DNA of 64,000 bases from Spizellomyces punctatus DAOM BR117 (taxonomy: Eukaryota), in NCBI GenBank assembly GCA_000182565.2, contig KQ257469.1; one strand, given 5' to 3'. Position 1 is the stretch's first letter, and the number at the start of each line of letters is the position of its first letter. The position numbers and the translations under genes are program-made. Below, piece after piece: positions 33,327 through 39,603 of this stretch. The notes below the pieces were generated by a model, which was not told the DNA's origin, made no database searches, and was given only the letters and a program-made list of their open reading frames with translations.

Positions 33327-34052
33327 CCGGTCAAGCAGTGTCTGGCATATCAACATAGTCCTGCAGGATAGGAAATTATGTATGTAGTATCTCATGGCAT
33401 TCCTTTGTTCTTGCTACAAGTTCTGTATCGTACATCCTCAACAAATAGCAAACTTTATGTCATCAGTGCTCAATGTCCTTTGTCCAAGCCTTGTTTCACT
33501 CTCATGAGAATTCAACAGCACTCTTGCGACCCTTGCCCATCAGGAGTTGTTTGGGTAGAGCCGACACCCAATGGGGAATGTTGACTATAACCATTCCCAG
33601 CGGGAGTTTCAATCGCCCGTAGTAGGTATCTCGTCTTTTAGAATGTATTCTTACGGCATTCAATCACAGTGTTCTAAGCGACTGAGATACCTCTGCGGAC
33701 AACAGGAGCTGATAGTGTTGCAGACGAAGATGTGCCAGGTTTGACGACTGCTATTTATCAATATTTACTACTCAAGGTTTTGCTATCAAACAACTTGGGT
33801 TTTGATCTCCAGTGAGGCTGATACTAGCGATACTATCAAATAATCCTTCAGAATAATGTTACTTACATGGTGATTCCCAATTTACAAGCAGATGGCAGAT
33901 GAAAGTCGCTGCGAGATGCGAGCGGCTGGTATATTAATAAAATGTGCCACCCGTGCCACATGGCTCAGTTTTCGACAATGTTATACTTCTTTTTGACAAA
34001 GAAACTCGGGCTTGCACAAGTTCCATTTCTGCTGGAACAGAATACTTGAACC

Positions 34053-35368
34053 ATGACCAGAGTAACCAAAATGGCGCGGAAGACGCACGAAGAGGCGTCC
34101 GGGTTTGTGGTGACACCTCTTTTGCCAAAGTCCAACTCGACAGGGGAGCAGCCGGATAGTACTAAGAAGCGGAAACGTAAGGAGGAAGTCGTGGCTGCTC
34201 CTACAGAGGCGAAAAAACACAAGCACGCCGAAAAGTCTTCCAAGGAGGAAAAGAAAAAGCGAAAGGAAAAAAAATCTCCGGAGGGAACGAGTGACGGTCC
34301 GAAGGTAGCGGATAGTACAGAAGTCAGCGAAAAGACGCCCAAGCCGAATAAGAAGAGAAAAGGAGAGGACAATAGCCCTGCGGTTGGTGAGAGACAGACA
34401 GACAACACTCCAGCTGCTCCATCTACAGGTGGATCCGCTCAAAAGAAAAAGAAGATGCGCCATCGATCAAAAGCTGAGTCGACACAGGGTGCCGGTACAT
34501 CTGGGGGAAAGCGGGGTAAGGGAAAAGTAGCCGAGGATGGTCTATCAAAGTATGGTTAGTATCCGTACATACCTATGAGGCCGACCGAGAGCAGCCGACT
34601 AAATGGTGGGTGGTTTTTAGAGAGGGAAGCCCTCAGAAGACGAACAAGGAGAGAAGCAATGAGGGAGAAGAAAATGGTATGCCAGTAACGATCTTTATTC
34701 TTATGAAGACACCCTGATATCGATTGCTTTCAAGGTCTGCTACCTTTGCAGAAGCATGGGGCACTCCATAAAATTCTGTCCGAAAGCTACGGAACAAGAT
34801 AAACAAGCCGTATCCGGAATTTGTTACAAGTGCGGTTCTACTGCCCACAAATCATCAGAATGCAAAAAAATGGTGGATCCTAGTAAGTGTCCTTATACAA
34901 TAGCTAATTTACTCATACAATTACACACCAGGACAATTTAATCATGTTTGGCGGTCACCTTATTTTAGAGAACCCATATCCTTTTGCGCACTGTTTTGTT
35001 TGCGATCAGCAAGGCCACTTGGCAAGTTTATGCCCAAAAAATGAACGGGGTCTGTATCCGAACGGAGGCGGTTGCAAATACTGTGGTTCAGTTAGGCACT
35101 TGGCGAGGGACTGTAAGCCTGCGTTGCAGGGTACGTAAATGGTTGTTGTGCATGGTACATGAATCACAGGCTTAACTCAATCTCTGTCCGGGTATCGTTT
35201 CTAGAAGCTGGGATTACCACGCTAGGCACCATCGATCTCAAGCAAGGTGGTGACGATGACGATGTGTTCGTAGCGCTACATAAGATGCAAGGTGACAAAG
35301 AAAAGGCGGCTGAGACTACAAAGCCAGGTACTAGGAAGTCTTCAAAGAAAAAGGTCGTAAAATTCTAG
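34053..35368 (+). CDS. ZCCHC9: CCHC zinc-knuckle protein, ZCCHC9-like
   Basis: Lys-rich N-terminus. Four knuckles: CLPCRSMGHSIKFC, CYKCGSTAHKSSEC, CFVCDQQGHLASLC and CKYCGSVRHLARDC, with the linker GLYPNGGG. Ends KKKVVKF*. Confidence 0.8.
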
Positions 35369-35477
35369 GTTAGTGGTGCCGGTATGGGAGAGGAGCTTGC
35401 TGAGCTGTTGAAGTTAGTGATCGATTTAATCATGCATTTACGGGTAGTTTGAGGTAGCTTTTGACTGATAATGATAA

Positions 35478-35558
35478 TTTATGAGAGTTGCATAGTGCGG
35501 AGCCGATGGGTATTGGCGGCACCAGGGATTGAACCGCGCGACAACCGGTTCGGAAAAC
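35478..35558 (-). ncRNA. Fanzor omegaRNA: about 66-nt scaffold plus about 15-nt flank-derived guide
   Basis: Begins 21 nt after the Fanzor stop. Scaffold GTTTTCCGAACCGGTTGTCGCGCGGTTCAATCCCTGGTGCCGCCAATACCCATCGGCTCCGCACTA (35558-35493), then flank TGCAACTCTCATAAA. Self-complementary, and closely resembles the SpuFz1 omegaRNA as I recall it. Exact ends are inferred. Confidence 0.8.
35495..35517. repeat. Terminal inverted repeat, omegaRNA end
   Basis: GTGCGGAGCCGATGGGTATTGGC, the exact reverse complement of 37608-37630. The symmetry extends to 27 bp when the flanking CATA/TATG is included. Confidence 0.97.
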
Positions 35559-35579
35559 CTAATCTAACCAATCTACGTT

Positions 35580-37472
35580 CTACGCTACGGCTGGAACACT
35601 CCTCCTGCTGAACACTTCTGGTCTACAGTGCCCATCCAACATTGATCTCACAATCATTAGCATGTTGCAGGTTGACAGCGTATCTCGATTCCAGTAGCGC
35701 ATTCCCGATGTCCAGGCTTGCTGCAAACAGTTAGGGTTGGTACAACCCAGCAATCCGTGGACTTTTTCAACCTTGCCTTCTCGTCGTCGATAAGGTCTTG
35801 AATGAGCTCGTGTTTTGAAGCCTTTTTTGAGGAAGTCGTTGGATGAGGCCAAACAGCGAGGGCAAACAGATGAGGTCTTGTACTCGTCGAGAAGGAAGCA
35901 GTTGATCCTGTTCCGCTTAAAGAGGGTGCGCCAACCTTTCGTCTTTGATGAGATCTGAAATCTCGCAGTTCGACCGGCGTCGCTCCAATCACCCATCACA
36001 ATGGTGAAGTTTTCACCGTACTTGTTGTGCAAGTTGGATATGAGGTTCGATTCGCTCTTCTGACGGTTTATAGATGCATGCCATTTCCATCGAGTATGAG
36101 CAGGGTGGGCATAGAATTCCTTGCGACGATCCCAATCAGCGCGGCGAACGAGAAGGTAACGCATGAAGTCTATGAGGTTCATCGTCTTGTGGCTTGAAAT
36201 ACGTGATTCTATGAGGTCAATACCGCCGGCTTTCATTGCTTCCCGCTCCCTTGCAAATCGCCGGCTGCCTGTCTCCATGGCTCGCTGGTTTGCGGTGTAG
36301 CGAAACGTTGTACCATTGCTGTCTTGGCAGTAGAGAAGATCGCGCTTGTTTGGGTCAATAACGACAAAGTTCTCTTGACAAGCAGATAAGTTGTTTTCCA
36401 CATAAAGCGCTTTAACCTCTGCCTCCATCGTGTTTGCTGACTTTTTCCCTCCGCTGCGCTTTCCATACTTGTCTGCTTCTGGGTGCTTTAAGTATACAGA
36501 CACCGAGGTTCCGTCCGTCGTGATCGAGCCTTCAAACCACATTCTACGACGAGATCTAAAAGCCTTGTTCTGCAGATTACAGACGCGCAACCATAAATCG
36601 ACCTTCTCTACGGCTTCTGCTTCTTGGCGGGTGATGCAGAGGATGTGGGCGTAGAGAATGACCGTGTCGATGCGAATATGGGACTGAATCAGAGACCGAC
36701 GAAGAGGGATTGCACTGAACCGACGGAAGCCATGTCGTTCATACAGCCCAGAGAGTTTGCAGTATGCAGGAAAGAAAGCGAGAGGGTCTACAGCAACCGA
36801 ATATGCGAGCTGCTGGTCAGAAAGGGGAATGAAGGACCACATCTCTTCTAGAAGTTCACTCTCTTTAGCAGTCAAGTCATCAAGTGACTCGGGCACAATA
36901 TCAAAAAGGAAAATTGACTTCAAGTAGCGTAGCCGAGCAAAGAAAGCTTTCCGCGCTTCACTCTTTGGAGGCCCTTTCCGTCCCTTCACGTCGAGCCGCA
37001 GATTGATATACCGAAGGAGCATCTGCATGAAATGCTCTTGAACGTTGACTTTCAGGTTCGTCATCATACTCACTGTCAGGTAATTGACTGATTGCTGCTC
37101 GCCTCGTAGATTTGGGTGAACAAAGCCGACGATTTGGCAGTACCGTTGAACATATGGCAGCAAACAATCCCGCCATGCCTTCTTTGCTTCCTTTCTTGGA
37201 TGCCAAGCCTCCCCCTTGTTGAGAAGGTAGAGAATCGCTTCGATGGTCTCCTCATTCACGGTGAAGGATGGTGCAGATAGGGTGTAGAATTTGAGAGCGT
37301 GGGAAGCGTGGGAAGCGAGTTGATGGATGATGGCGATGTAATCTAGAAGACGCTGCCGGTAGGTCTCATTAGGCAAGAAAGCCTTTGCAAAGGACGTCTT
37401 GTTGCAGGTATGTAAGGTGGGTTTGTCGAGTTTTTCGAGCCTTTCGAGCTTTTGCTTTTTCTTTGGCGGCAT
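35580..37472 (-). CDS. Fz1: Fanzor1 RNA-guided DNA endonuclease (eukaryotic TnpB/Cas12 relative), SpuFz1-like, 630 aa, intronless
   Basis: NLS PPKKKQK. SITTDGTSVSV motif. RuvC-I VVIDPN (D373). MGDWS motif. Displaced RuvC-II LLDEYKTS (E530). Zn finger CPRC..CTNPNC (C537, C540, C577, C582). RuvC-III YWNRD (D597). Confidence 0.97.
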   Translation of the reverse strand: MPPKKKQKLERLEKLDKPTLHTCNKTSFAKAFLPNETYRQRLLDYIAIIHQLASHASHALKFYTLSAPSFTVNEETIEAILYLLNKGEAWHPRKEAKKAWRDCLLPYVQRYCQIVGFVHPNLRGEQQSVNYLTVSMMTNLKVNVQEHFMQMLLRYINLRLDVKGRKGPPKSEARKAFFARLRYLKSIFLFDIVPESLDDLTAKESELLEEMWSFIPLSDQQLAYSVAVDPLAFFPAYCKLSGLYERHGFRRFSAIPLRRSLIQSHIRIDTVILYAHILCITRQEAEAVEKVDLWLRVCNLQNKAFRSRRRMWFEGSITTDGTSVSVYLKHPEADKYGKRSGGKKSANTMEAEVKALYVENNLSACQENFVVIDPNKRDLLYCQDSNGTTFRYTANQRAMETGSRRFAREREAMKAGGIDLIESRISSHKTMNLIDFMRYLLVRRADWDRRKEFYAHPAHTRWKWHASINRQKSESNLISNLHNKYGENFTIVMGDWSDAGRTARFQISSKTKGWRTLFKRNRINCFLLDEYKTSSVCPRCLASSNDFLKKGFKTRAHSRPYRRREGKVEKVHGLLGCTNPNCLQQAWTSGMRYWNRDTLSTCNMLMIVRSMLDGHCRPEVFSRRSVPAVA

Positions 37473-37519
37473 GATGATATCTGAAAAAGATGAAAGCCTG
37501 GGAAAATGGGCACGACAAC

Positions 37520-37526
37520 TTATATA
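37520..37526 (-). promoter_or_regulatory. TATA box inside the element, upstream of Fanzor
   Basis: TATATAA on the minus strand, 47 bp upstream of the ATG at 37472. Confidence 0.55.
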
Positions 37527-37607
37527 GGATTTTTTGGATCAAACCATAGTTCATGAGTCTACATCGAGTAAAATTATGATTAAATTGGTTGGAATCTATG
37601 TACTAGT

Positions 37608-37630
37608 GCCAATACCCATCGGCTCCGCAC
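37608..37630. repeat. Terminal inverted repeat, promoter end
   Basis: GCCAATACCCATCGGCTCCGCAC followed by TATG, i.e. CATA immediately 5' of the element on the minus strand. Confidence 0.97.
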
Positions 37631-37973
37631 TATGTATCTACACATCGTGGTGATTTTCCAAGTTATCTGCATGCGCTGCCATTGGAGTCTTCTTGCTAGA
37701 TATTTGATGTTCAAGTAACTACGTCTGACGCTAGTGTCCTATATGTTAGTGCCCTAATGAGCTGAGATTCAACAGAAGAATATTGCCACAATTTGATATA
37801 ATGGGAAAGAATGGCCCGAACATATATTCTCGCTATTGATTCTGCCTTTTACTCGCAAAGACCAAGTTGACAGAGAAATTAGATATCTACATGCACGCAT
37901 ATCTGCAAAAAATATACTACAATAATGCAAACATCGGAGTTTCCAAATCATGAAATATTCGCCGTTTATATCC

Positions 37974-39603
37974 TCAACCTTGCCGTATCTTCTTCATTCG
38001 ATCTGTCTCGGTCCCGCCATCGCGTCGACGTTTAGACCATTGTGGATTGTAAGAAACCTGATATTTGGCGCCCACGGCAAAGTCCTCAATTACCGGACCG
38101 CTATAATCGTCTTGTCCAGGCGATAAAAAATCCTCAAGCGTATATTGTTCTACAATGCGGACTTTGAGTTGCGATGTTCGCCGCCAAGGCAGTATAGTCC
38201 ATACCTTCTGGTTCCTCCGCGACAAGTACAGGAGAGGTGGGGTTTAATGATACGTTACGTGAAGAGTCCATACTGAAAAATAAGCGATTACGTCAACTCC
38301 AAAGTGCCAATGATTATGACTCTAATTACGGGACCACTCACCCGTCGTTTATGAAAGCAACCTCCCCAAGCAAGGGCTCATCTCCCTGACTTTGCGTTAG
38401 GTCAATGCCTTCTACCATAACCATCCCTCCGGGTGACGACTGCTTGCTGAGAAGCGATCGTCGTTTGTCTGGCAGCGGTGTCGTATGTTGCCATTTTTTG
38501 TAAGGCCGCGTGACAACCTTATCGTACACCCCGGGTTTGCCGTTCGGATACGTTGATTTAGCCCCTTCTGCATAACGTCCTTCGCCCAGTCCTGATGTCT
38601 GCCTTTGCTGCCGCGGGCTCACCGGCGACGCGGTTGATGAAGCATCGCCTGTTCTCTTTGATGGAGTAACCTCCGGTCTTCGACCTTCAGCAGACTGTTC
38701 GGTGATCGGCTCCGACTGTGGTAGCGTTAAAGGCGATGAAGGGAGACTAGGATTTTCCGCGCTTTGTACAGAGGGAGCGAGGTGTTTTAATGGCCTTCGT
38801 AAAGTTTTTGGTGTGATATCAACCAAAACGCTTGTCGTTCGAGAAGCAGCTATTCGGCGGGGTGACGAGGATGTTCCCGTAGCCCTACCTAATATCGAAC
38901 TTGTTGGGTTCGTTTGTTTTGTACGCAGCGCACCGGAGCTATCAGCAAGGGTAACAGTTTCTTCTGAATTCAACGGTGAAGACGCTGAACGGACGAATAG
39001 TAGACAACATGAGCCTTCTGGAGCCGAAAGCGTTCATGTCCCAGACCGAGCACACCTGTAGCGTCTAGGATATTGACAAGCCCGTCTTCCTGCGACCAAG
39101 TTTCTACCCCTGACGGCACCGCTTCGACGGACACAATCTTGGAATGCGTACCCTGAGCTGAACTCTGTATCGACCCTGGCTTTGGACTCTTTTTGACAGC
39201 AAGGCTGACGAAATGTTGGGCAGCTGTTGTTAGCTGCCCTTTTCCTGTCAGACTTTCAAATCTTTCAACTGCCTCTTTGACCGTTACAGAAACCGTCGGA
39301 GGAGCCACGTCCTGTGTCGCTTCGTCTTCCGACCACACTTCAGCTCCGTCGGGTTCTTTTTCGTCTACTTCTTCCCCATCATTCGGAAATGTCTGACTCT
39401 CCGCAGCTGCAAAAAGGAGACCAGGATATCTTTAGATTCATGCTCGCGTGTTCTCGTGCCAGTCAGTTGCCGTCGGGCCGGCTCAGATCGCCGCAGTTAC
39501 CTCTAGCGTCGGTTACAATGCTATTCGAAGTTTCTTGCTCCGTTTCCTCATCTTCAAAGCCTCCTAGACCAGAGAGTCTAAGCACACGCTTTAGCAATGA
39601 CAT
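37974..39603 (-). CDS. Hypothetical Ser/Thr/Pro-rich, largely disordered protein (about 4 exons)
   Basis: MSLLKRVLRLSGLGGFEDEE from ATG 39603, spliced into ORFs 38970-39338, 38338-38973 and 37974-38225. Confidence 0.6.

What the first reader, a model, noticed from the sequence alone, without database searches (positions are those of the whole stretch)
35478..37634. Complete eukaryotic RNA-guided DNA nuclease locus: TIR transposon + intact Fanzor + omegaRNA
Seen in the sequence: a 2,136-bp element with perfect 23-bp TIRs and TA duplication. Its only ORF is an intronless 630-aa protein in an otherwise intron-rich genome, with an SV40-like NLS, an intact RuvC triad (D373, E530, D597) and a C4 zinc finger. 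A self-complementary non-coding segment follows and reaches the element end. Established: this is the TnpB/Fanzor (OMEGA) architecture, in which a right-end RNA plus flanking sequence guides DNA cleavage. Fanzor1 from Spizellomyces punctatus (SpuFz1) is a characterised programmable nuclease with a 5'-CATA TAM, so the family is not new. Inference: this copy is a diverged paralogue (it differs from SpuFz1 as I recall it by substitutions and small indels) and is probably catalytically competent.
Basis: partly seen in the sequence, partly recalled or inferred. Interest (0 to 1): 0.95.

Follow-up and report, generated by a model that had tools for sequence, protein, structure and literature searches.

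The report
Intact SPu-1 Fanzor copy, already known
This is one intact copy of the SPu-1 transposon of the chytrid fungus Spizellomyces punctatus, carrying a paralogue of the already characterised RNA-guided nuclease SpuFz1 and its guide RNA, so the reading is correct but the thing is already described.

Summary
On the minus strand, window 35580-37472 is one uninterrupted 630-aa ORF. It lies between inverted repeats with a perfect 23-nt core, 35495-35517 and 37608-37630, each flanked by TA. The perfect match runs to 27 nt, CATA...TATG. The protein matches the solved SpuFz1 structure 8GKH at E=0 and is 85.6% identical (536 of 626 aligned positions) to SpuFz1 itself. It keeps 4 of 4 metal-binding residues, 6 of 6 TAM-reading residues, 4 of 4 zinc cysteines and 35 of 38 RNA or heteroduplex contacts. 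The 66 nt inside the right end fold into two stems and a 6-nt linker, and they match all 18 scaffold nucleotides named in the structure paper. None of this is new. The exact 630-aa sequence is already in NCBI and UniRef, from S. punctatus DAOM BR117. The SPu-1 element was described in 2013 (PMC3627910). A 2023 census counted 19 full-length Fanzor loci in this genome and showed RNA-guided cleavage with a CATA TAM (PMC10432273). Activity of this particular copy is inferred, not shown. The RNA reads could not be assigned to this locus. Verdict: already known, low interest.

The parts
35478..35492 (-). Predicted 15-nt guide of the omegaRNA, transcribed from DNA flanking the right end. As RNA it reads UGCAACUCUCAUAAA.
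   Evidence: In SpuFz1 the guide starts directly after the scaffold's last nucleotide, A75. The native target in the oligo table of PMC11423790 is CATA followed by a sequence that fits the named guide nucleotides U76, C77, U78, A81, G83 and A86. The position in this copy is inferred by homology. No RNA 3' end was measured here.
35493..35558 (-). OmegaRNA scaffold, 66 nt: stem-loop 1 (nt 8-28), linker AAUCCC (nt 29-34), stem 2 (nt 35-66, ending ...CACUA). It includes the right inverted repeat.
   Evidence: The fold of this stretch gives two stems and a 6-nt linker, and the minimum-energy structure equals the centroid. Numbering from 35558, 15 of 15 named 5' nucleotides of the SpuFz1 scaffold match: U5, C6, C7, U16-G20, G22, A29, C32, C34, U35, G37 and C40. 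G70, A72 and A75 match at an offset of -9 (read). In RNA run X11, 124 reads diverge from this locus at 35562, close to the inner edge of the scaffold.
35491..35517 (.). Right-end inverted repeat: 27 nt perfect, made of a 23-nt core (35495-35517), TA (35493-35494) and the two flank bases CA as read on the + strand (35491-35492), which read TG in the ORF's orientation.
35580..37472 (-). Fanzor1 ORF, 630 aa, a paralogue of SpuFz1. RuvC residues D373, N375, E530 and D597. Zinc finger C537, C540, C577 and C582. N-terminal basic motif PPKKKQK.
35822..35935 (-). A 114-nt in-frame GT...AG segment that the public 'variant' gene model (592 aa) removes. It encodes residues 513-550, which include E530, C537 and C540.
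   Evidence: Apart from this 38-residue gap, P0001 is identical to the ORF. Removing 35822-35935 reproduces P0001 exactly with GT/AG ends. No read joint was seen there, but RNA depth was only 0.5-4, so this was not tested.
37473..37607 (-). Left non-coding region between the left inverted repeat and the ATG. Presumed promoter and 5' UTR.
   Evidence: Position only. RNA reads pile up here, but most carry letters of other copies: at 37562, 81 of 85 and 48 of 48 reads differ from the window.
37608..37634 (.). Left-end inverted repeat plus the TAM. Read in the ORF's orientation, CA (37634-37633) followed by TA (37632-37631) gives CATA at the left junction.
   Evidence: Saito et al. report a conserved CA upstream of the 5' inverted repeat and a 5'-CATA TAM. 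Reads from other copies diverge at 37632, 37633 and 37636, which marks the element boundary.

Best explanation
Window 35491-37634 is one full-length, non-autonomous SPu-1 element of Spizellomyces punctatus DAOM BR117. It has terminal inverted repeats and TA at both ends, and it encodes no transposase. Its single gene encodes an intact Fanzor1 nuclease, a paralogue of SpuFz1.

The last 66 nt inside the right end specify the omegaRNA scaffold. Transcription running about 15 nt into the flank (35492 down to 35478) would supply the guide.

By homology with SpuFz1, the protein-RNA complex should cut double-stranded DNA that carries 5'-CATA followed by a match to that guide.

At this locus the left junction reads CA+TA. 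The right flank, read in the ORF's orientation, is TGCAACTCTCATAAA. A site that had precisely lost the element would therefore read CATA+TGCAACTCTCATAAA, which is exactly this copy's predicted target. The occupied right junction reads ACTA before the same sequence, so it should escape cutting. This mirrors the TnpB logic of cutting the emptied donor site so that repair from a filled copy restores the element.

Shown here: the anatomy and the residue-by-residue conservation. Shown in the literature for SpuFz1 only: RNA binding, the TAM and cleavage. Inferred: activity of this copy, its guide, and the re-cutting of the empty site.
For: - Similarity: full-length match to the SpuFz1 chain of 8GKH, E=0, 1215 bits. 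P0004 (SPPG_07727, 638 aa) is identical to that chain over residues 2-638. The window protein is 536/626 = 85.6% identical to it.
- Conserved residues: D383, N385, E541 and D606, 4 of 4. TAM readers R96, Q129, Q130, N133, R291 and Y345, 6 of 6. Zinc cysteines, 4 of 4. OmegaRNA contacts, 22 of 25. Heteroduplex contacts, 13 of 13.
- E530 lies six residues before C537. This is the shifted RuvC2 glutamate described for Fanzors (passages of the preprint).
- Element anatomy matches the published descriptions: about 2.1 kb, a single ORF, 30-33-nt inverted repeats, putative TA duplication, and CA upstream of the 5' repeat.
- The scaffold fold shows two stems and a 6-nt linker, and 18 of 18 named scaffold nucleotides match.
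- The guide starts right after ...CACUA, as in the SpuFz1 native target.
- The exact protein is on record from this organism, on a 405,129-nt contig.
Against: - Nothing shows that this copy is expressed or active. In RNA run X11 (about 6% of the run read), the ORF body 35946-37115 has depth 0-1.6. Reads concentrate on the repeated ends, and most carry letters of other copies: 37562, 81 of 85 and 48 of 48; 35616, 39 of 41; 37282, 25 of 28.
- Three omegaRNA-contact residues differ from SpuFz1: R419E, W570Y and M607T.
- The scaffold appears 9 nt shorter in distal stem 2 than the 75-nt SpuFz1 scaffold. This is inferred from named nucleotides only, because I could not see the SpuFz1 RNA sequence.
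- The fold energy is not significantly better than shuffles.
- A scan of my Pfam-A copy gave no family above threshold, although relatives carry a precomputed PF26935.
- The empty-site model needs precise excision by an unknown transposase acting in trans. Saito et al. found no transposase inside Spu-1 elements.
Confidence: 0.9

Rival explanations
1. The copy has an open reading frame but is functionally decayed. Substitutions at RNA-contact positions and the shorter stem 2 stop it forming an active RNP, or the locus is silent. It would then be a recent, inert duplicate that has not yet picked up stop codons.
For: R419E, W570Y and M607T differ at named omegaRNA contacts. The scaffold is apparently 9 nt shorter. 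There is almost no RNA depth over the ORF body, and no reads can be assigned to this locus. Of the 17 named S. punctatus paralogue models I examined, only 4 (P0002-P0005) keep all eight key residues, so decay is common in the family.
Against: E at position 419, Y at 570 and T at 607 also occur in other full-length paralogues, so they are family polymorphisms. The missing 9 nt lie in C40-G70 of stem 2, which the authors showed to be dispensable in human cells. All catalytic, TAM and zinc residues are intact, and a 630-codon frame is open.
Confidence: 0.15
2. The gene's main product in the fungus is the spliced 592-aa isoform. It lacks E530 and half of the zinc finger, so it would be a nuclease-dead, RNA-guided DNA binder or a regulator of the active copies.
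For: The public annotation holds a 'variant' model (XP_016604411.1) equal to the ORF minus residues 513-550. The removed 114 nt are in frame and begin GT and end AG.
Against: No read joint at 35822/35935 was seen, although depth there was too low to test. Gene models of other paralogues lack different segments, which looks like gene-prediction noise on a multi-copy family. Removing two zinc ligands would probably unfold the domain that holds stem-loop 1.
Confidence: 0.05
3. The flanking TA is not a target-site duplication but the outermost part of a 25-27-nt inverted repeat. The element would then move by a mechanism that makes no duplication, for example a single-strand or HUH-type route as in IS200/IS605.
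For: Perfect complementarity continues through TA to CATA/TATG, 27 nt. TA is its own reverse complement, so one copy cannot tell the two readings apart. The scaffold's last two nucleotides are this TA.
Against: Bao and Jurka, working from 17 full-length copies, call it a putative TA duplication. Reads from other copies diverge at 37632 as well as at 37633 and 37636, so conservation often stops right after TA.
Confidence: 0.2

Closest known systems
SpuFz1 (SPPG_07727; PDB 8GKH, 9CEU-9CEZ), Fanzor1 of Spizellomyces punctatus
   Same: Same genome, same element family, same domain order. 85.6% identity over 626 aligned positions. All metal-binding, TAM-reading and zinc residues are identical. The omegaRNA has the same two-stem layout and matches 18 of 18 named scaffold nucleotides. 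CATA stands at the left junction.
   Different: 630 aa against 638, with 16 gap columns between the two sequences in a few short patches. About 14% substitutions, among them R419E, W570Y and M607T at RNA contacts. The scaffold is apparently 66 nt rather than 75, shorter in the dispensable distal stem 2. The guide differs because the flank differs. This copy has not been assayed.
SPu-1 element (Bao and Jurka 2013, PMC3627910)
   Same: About 2.1 kb, a single ORF of about 633 aa, terminal inverted repeats, putative TA duplication, and no transposase (compared).
   Different: In this copy the repeat is perfect for 25-27 nt and does not continue inward to the 33 bp given for the family. I could not check the consensus because supplements are closed.
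TnpB of IS200/IS605 (e.g. ISDra2) and its omegaRNA
   Same: RuvC nuclease with a zinc finger. The guide RNA is made from the right end plus flank. The TAM sits at the left junction, so the emptied site is the predicted target (statements of PMC10432273; geometry).
   Different: No sequence-level hit to TnpB structures at E<=1. Fanzor1 is larger and has the RuvC2 glutamate shifted to six residues before the zinc finger. It has terminal inverted repeats rather than subterminal hairpins, and no TnpA. Per the paper, the SpuFz1 omegaRNA lacks the pseudoknot.
PpFz1 (Parasitella parasitica Fanzor1, PDB 9CF0)
   Same: Next-best solved relative: E=8e-48 over two stretches, with the RuvC and zinc-finger regions aligned.
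   Different: Much more distant, and it carries a large RuvC insertion that is absent here (passage).

Membership tests
Fanzor1 (SpuFz1 group) | Full-length sequence similarity to a characterised Fanzor1 | tested here: met
   8GKH chain: E=0, 1215 bits, query residues 2-630. 85.6% identity to SpuFz1.
Fanzor1 (SpuFz1 group) | RuvC1 aspartate in a DPx motif | tested here: met
   D373 in IDPN aligns with D383, and N375 with N385, both metal ligands in the structure. The motif is DPN, as in SpuFz1, not the DPG given as typical.
Fanzor1 (SpuFz1 group) | C-terminally shifted RuvC2 glutamate six residues before the zinc finger | tested here: met
   E530 corresponds to E541, and C537 follows after six residues.
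Fanzor1 (SpuFz1 group) | RuvC3 aspartate | tested here: met
   D597 corresponds to D606.
Fanzor1 (SpuFz1 group) | Four-cysteine zinc finger between RuvC2 and RuvC3 | tested here: met
   C537, C540, C577 and C582 align with C548, C551, C586 and C591.
Fanzor1 (SpuFz1 group) | Match to the Pfam family of these proteins | tested here: inconclusive
   The Pfam-A scan gave only a sub-threshold PyrI_C hit. Relatives carry a precomputed PF26935, which my scan did not return.
Fanzor1 (SpuFz1 group) | OmegaRNA encoded at the right end, bound by the protein | not testable with these tools
   Sequence and predicted fold agree with the published scaffold. Binding needs an experiment. Rfam has no matching family.
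Fanzor1 (SpuFz1 group) | Guide- and TAM-dependent cleavage of double-stranded DNA | not testable with these tools
   Shown for SpuFz1 only.
SPu-1 transposable element | About 2.1 kb with terminal inverted repeats of about 30 nt | tested here: met
   2,136-2,144 bp. The repeat is 27 nt perfect, or 32 nt at 94%.
SPu-1 transposable element | TA at both ends and CA before the 5' repeat | tested here: met
   TA at 35493-35494 and 37631-37632. CA, in ORF orientation, at 37634-37633. Whether the TA is a duplication cannot be settled from one copy.
SPu-1 transposable element | Multiple copies in the genome | not testable with these tools
   No genome is held for this window. Indirect support: 17 named S. 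punctatus paralogue proteins, and reads that carry other copies' letters and other flanks.

The most novel reading that the evidence does not exclude
This copy may make two products. One is the full nuclease. The other arises by removing an in-frame 114-nt GT...AG segment (35822-35935) that the public annotation already models. That isoform lacks the catalytic glutamate and two zinc ligands, and could be a natural nuclease-dead, RNA-guided DNA binder that tempers or redirects the family's activity. Separately, its omegaRNA may be a natural 66-nt scaffold, 9 nt shorter than the canonical 75-nt one.
Probability: 0.06. Interest if true: 0.5.

Novelty: already known. Interest (0 to 1): 0.1.

Why it matters
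Fanzor showed that eukaryotes have their own programmable RNA-guided DNA nucleases, and SpuFz1 is being engineered as a compact genome editor.

This locus adds no new kind of system. It is one of the intact copies already counted in the source genome.

Its modest value is as a natural variant. It differs from SpuFz1 at about 14% of aligned positions, keeps every functional residue named in the structure paper except three RNA contacts, and seems to carry a shorter stem 2. Variants of this kind are raw material for comparing activity among paralogues.

The junction geometry at this copy (CATA at the left end, guide equal to the right flank) is a clean worked example of the idea that the nuclease targets its own emptied site.

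Tried and rejected
- **Whole-genome look-up of other copies:** no genome is held for this window. I could not align paralogous elements to fix the ends, find empty sites or estimate selection.
- **tRNA:** the right end contains a stretch resembling a tRNA T-arm plus CCA. ARAGORN finds no tRNA in 34000-39000 and Rfam finds nothing at E<=1 in 35000-38200. I dropped the idea.
- **Other SPu-1 or ghost copies in the window:** none. A blastn of both ends and of the whole element against the 64 kb gave only the element itself and chance hits of 18 nt or less. The 23-mer search at up to 3 mismatches agrees.
- **Metagenome relatives, to test covariation in the right-end RNA:** the scan gave 8 loci at 39-71% identity (best segment). 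Of the six whose reading frames I listed, none has one continuous Fanzor ORF. The three with flanks on both sides (L002-L004) show no flanking inverted repeats like SPu-1. The 3' regions of the three loci I aligned do not align with this right end, at 45% mean column identity. A dead end.
- **RNA evidence:** four runs were laid at 97% likeness or more. X12 and X13 gave nothing. X5, of unknown kind, holds the unique flank-to-right-end junction 35400-35548 with 0 differences. X11, raw RNA reads, gave 1,190 reads, of which 1,136 fit only in part. They lie mostly on the repeated ends and mostly carry other copies' letters. The strand convention of the library is unknown. There is therefore no locus-specific statement on expression, on RNA ends or on the modelled intron. 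The 'opposite strands' joint 35519/37603 (7 reads) is what a read crossing one repeat arm looks like when the arm is placed on the other end.
- **Bacterial promoter and terminator scan:** no more sites than in shuffles, and not meaningful for a fungus.
- **SpuFz1 omegaRNA sequence:** not found in the main texts of three papers (and section 10). Supplements are closed.
- **Not run:** structure prediction, fold search and complex prediction. At 86% identity to a solved complex they would add nothing.
Full report
**What is in the sequence**

On the minus strand, window 35580-37472 is one uninterrupted ATG-to-stop frame of 630 codons. It is the only ORF of 80 aa or more between 35000 and 38200.

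Inverted repeats bracket it. The repeat finder reports arms 35486-35517 and 37608-37639, 32 nt at 94% complementarity. A base-by-base check gives the following:
- TA immediately outside both cores;
- perfect complementarity continuing two bases further, 27 nt in all, CATA...TATG, 35491-37634.

The 23-mer occurs nowhere else in the 64 kb at up to 3 mismatches, and none of 100 shuffles gave two matches. The repeat is therefore not chance.

The protein starts MPPKKKQK.

**What it is**

The protein matches the Spizellomyces punctatus Fanzor chain of PDB 8GKH over its whole length (E=0, 1215 bits). The next-best match is Parasitella Fanzor1 at 8e-48. Nothing else is meaningful.

In the large protein collection the best relatives are 17 named proteins of S. 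punctatus DAOM BR117, followed by other chytrids and unnamed environmental sequences. P0004 (SPPG_07727, 638 aa) is identical to the 8GKH chain over residues 2-638, so it is SpuFz1 itself. The window protein shares 536 of 626 aligned positions with it, 85.6%.

The exact 630-aa sequence is already held by NCBI, UniRef and EukProt, on a 405,129-nt contig. It sits in the same 90% cluster as XP_016604411.1, 'hypothetical protein, variant [Spizellomyces punctatus DAOM BR117]'. The window is therefore from that published genome, and the gene is already annotated, though only as hypothetical.

**Is the protein intact?**

I mapped every SpuFz1 residue that the structure paper names (section 10 of PMC10432273) onto this copy:

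| Residue class | Conserved in this copy |
|---|---|
| Metal ligands D383, N385, E541, D606 | 4 of 4 (D373, N375, E530, D597) |
| TAM readers R96, Q129, Q130, N133, R291, Y345 | 6 of 6 |
| Zinc cysteines | 4 of 4 (C537, C540, C577, C582) |
| Heteroduplex contacts | 13 of 13 |
| OmegaRNA contacts | 22 of 25 |

The three omegaRNA-contact exceptions are R419E, W570Y and M607T. Each of these variants also occurs in other full-length paralogues.

E530 sits six residues before the first zinc cysteine. This is the C-terminally shifted RuvC2 glutamate described as a Fanzor signature (passages of preprint 10.1101/2023.08.09.552727).

Of the 17 named S. punctatus paralogue models, only four (P0002-P0005) keep all eight key residues. 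This copy therefore belongs to the intact minority.

**The right-end RNA**

Between the stop codon (35580-35582) and the terminal TA (35493-35494) lie 87 non-coding nt.

I numbered the RNA from window 35558 and compared it with the nucleotides named in the paper (against the sequence printed):
- U5, C6, C7, U16, G17, U18, C19, G20, G22, A29, C32, C34, U35, G37 and C40 all fall on the same letters.
- G70, A72 and A75 fall on G61, A63 and A66, an offset of 9.

Folded alone, the 66 nt from 35558 to 35493 give stem-loop 1 (nt 8-28), a 6-nt linker AAUCCC (nt 29-34) and stem 2 (nt 35-66). The minimum-energy structure equals the centroid. This is the published 'two stems and a linker, A29 to C34'.

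The energy is not clearly better than shuffles. For the 66 nt, z = -1.22, and 28 of 200 shuffles fold as well. For a 105-nt piece including the flank, z = +0.65.

I conclude that the scaffold is present and looks 9 nt shorter than the 75-nt SpuFz1 scaffold. The missing part lies within C40-G70 of stem 2, which the authors found dispensable in human cells. This length difference rests on named nucleotides only. I could not see the SpuFz1 RNA sequence: it was not in the main texts I searched, and supplements are closed.

**Guide, TAM and the logic of the locus**

The oligo table of PMC11423790 gives the SpuFz native target as CATA followed by a sequence that fits the named guide nucleotides U76, C77, U78, A81, G83 and A86. 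The guide therefore begins directly after the scaffold's terminal ...CACUA, which is the element's terminal TA.

Here that puts a 15-nt guide at 35492 down to 35478, UGCAACUCUCAUAAA.

At the other end, read in the ORF's orientation, the flank ends in CA and the element begins with TA. The left junction therefore reads CATA, the SpuFz1 TAM, in line with the 'conserved CA upstream of the 5' IR'.

If the element left precisely, the site would read CATA+TGCAACTCTCATAAA, which is this copy's own predicted target. The occupied right junction has ACTA before the same sequence, and the paper reports that changing any TAM base abolishes cleavage.

This re-cutting of the emptied site is an inference by analogy with TnpB. 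It is not shown here or, as far as I read, in the papers. Saito et al. found no transposase inside Spu-1 elements and leave the biological role open.

**What is already in print**

Bao and Jurka 2013 (PMC3627910, passages) described SPu-1: about 2,100 bp, one ORF of 633 aa, 33-bp terminal inverted repeats, putative TA duplications, and 17 full-length copies of which nine have intact ORFs.

Saito et al. 2023 (PMC10432273, passages and section 10) reported:
- 42 Fanzor loci in DAOM BR117, 19 of them full-length, and 134 'ghost' loci;
- proteins sharing about 82% identity;
- 30-nt repeats;
- a 75-nt scaffold plus a 14-15-nt guide;
- native expression of the RNA at four loci;
- the CATA TAM, cleavage, and the 2.7 A structure.

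Later work engineered the protein and the ghost scaffolds (PMC13434818, abstract and passages).

A text search for the accession numbers of this copy's spliced variant found no paper naming them. No paper seems to single out this copy, but it falls within the published census. I could not check the supplementary locus lists.

**Expression**

The one reads experiment was uninformative for this locus.
- In raw RNA run X11 (about 6% of it read), 1,190 reads were laid at 97% likeness or more, and 1,136 of them fit only in part.
- Depth is high on the two ends (up to 58 at 35478-35555, and 125-136 at 37506-37661) and on the 5' part of the ORF. It is 0-1.6 over 35946-37115.
- At several positions nearly all reads differ from the window: 37562, 81 of 85 and 48 of 48; 35616, 39 of 41; 37282, 25 of 28. 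Most reads therefore come from other copies.
- 124 reads diverge at 35562, near the inner edge of the scaffold. Reads run into other flanks at 37632, 37633 and 37636. Both patterns fit many loci sharing only the ends.
- No splice joint was reported, but depth at the modelled intron was only 0.5-4.
- X5, of unknown kind, contains the unique flank-to-right-end junction without a difference.

**The annotated variant**

XP_016604411.1 (592 aa) equals the ORF minus residues 513-550. Deleting window 35822-35935, 114 nt beginning GT and ending AG, reproduces it exactly.

That isoform would lack E530, C537 and C540. Other paralogue models lack other segments, so this may be prediction noise. It remains untested.

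**Surroundings**

The right end lies 124 nt downstream of the stop codon (35366-35368) of a plus-strand, multi-exon gene with four CCHC zinc knuckles. No second SPu-1 or ghost copy lies in the window.

**Dead ends**

These are listed under Tried and rejected:
- no genome was held;
- the metagenome relatives I checked were broken, lacked SPu-1-like repeats and were not alignable at the 3' end;
- no tRNA or Rfam family was found;

**Verdict**

It is an intact member of a family that has been named, counted in this genome, assayed and solved. Novelty: already known. Interest: low.

Noticed in passing
window 35822-35935 (minus strand): The public 'variant' gene model removes an in-frame 114-nt GT...AG segment. 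The resulting 592-aa product lacks the catalytic glutamate E530 and the zinc ligands C537 and C540.
   Followed up: partly
window 34663-35368 (plus strand): A multi-exon gene with four CCHC zinc-knuckle motifs ends at 35368. The SPu-1 right end starts 124 nt downstream of its stop, so the element and its guide region may lie in or next to that gene's 3' UTR. The flank 35400-35477 has RNA depth of about 25 on one strand in run X11.
   Followed up: partly
window 35493-35558: By offset of the named nucleotides, the omegaRNA scaffold of this copy appears to be 66 nt, 9 nt shorter in distal stem 2 than the published 75-nt SpuFz1 scaffold.
   Followed up: partly
window 35491-35494 and 37631-37634: The reconstructed insertion site would be the palindrome CATATG. 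In this copy the conserved CA before the left end is mirrored by TG after the right end.
   Followed up: no
window 37601: In RNA run X11, 27 reads carry a run of T immediately before 37601, just inside the left inverted repeat. This could be a polyadenylated end of a transcript entering from outside, or an oligo-dT priming artefact. The reads may come from other copies.
   Followed up: no
L002:1213-3499 and L003:302-2588: Contigs from two metagenome data sets (L002, L003) carry a Fanzor1 relative with the same ORF layout and end sequences (48% identical to this protein). Its frame is split into 251-aa and 503-aa parts about 20 nt apart, and no SPu-1-like terminal inverted repeats are present.
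   Followed up: partly
P0006, P0007, P0009-P0011, P0013-P0016, P0018-P0020: Twelve of the 17 named S. punctatus paralogue models are truncated or lack segments, and eight of them lack catalytic or zinc residues. Nearly all models that keep the N-terminus also keep the basic MPPKKKQK start.
   Followed up: partly
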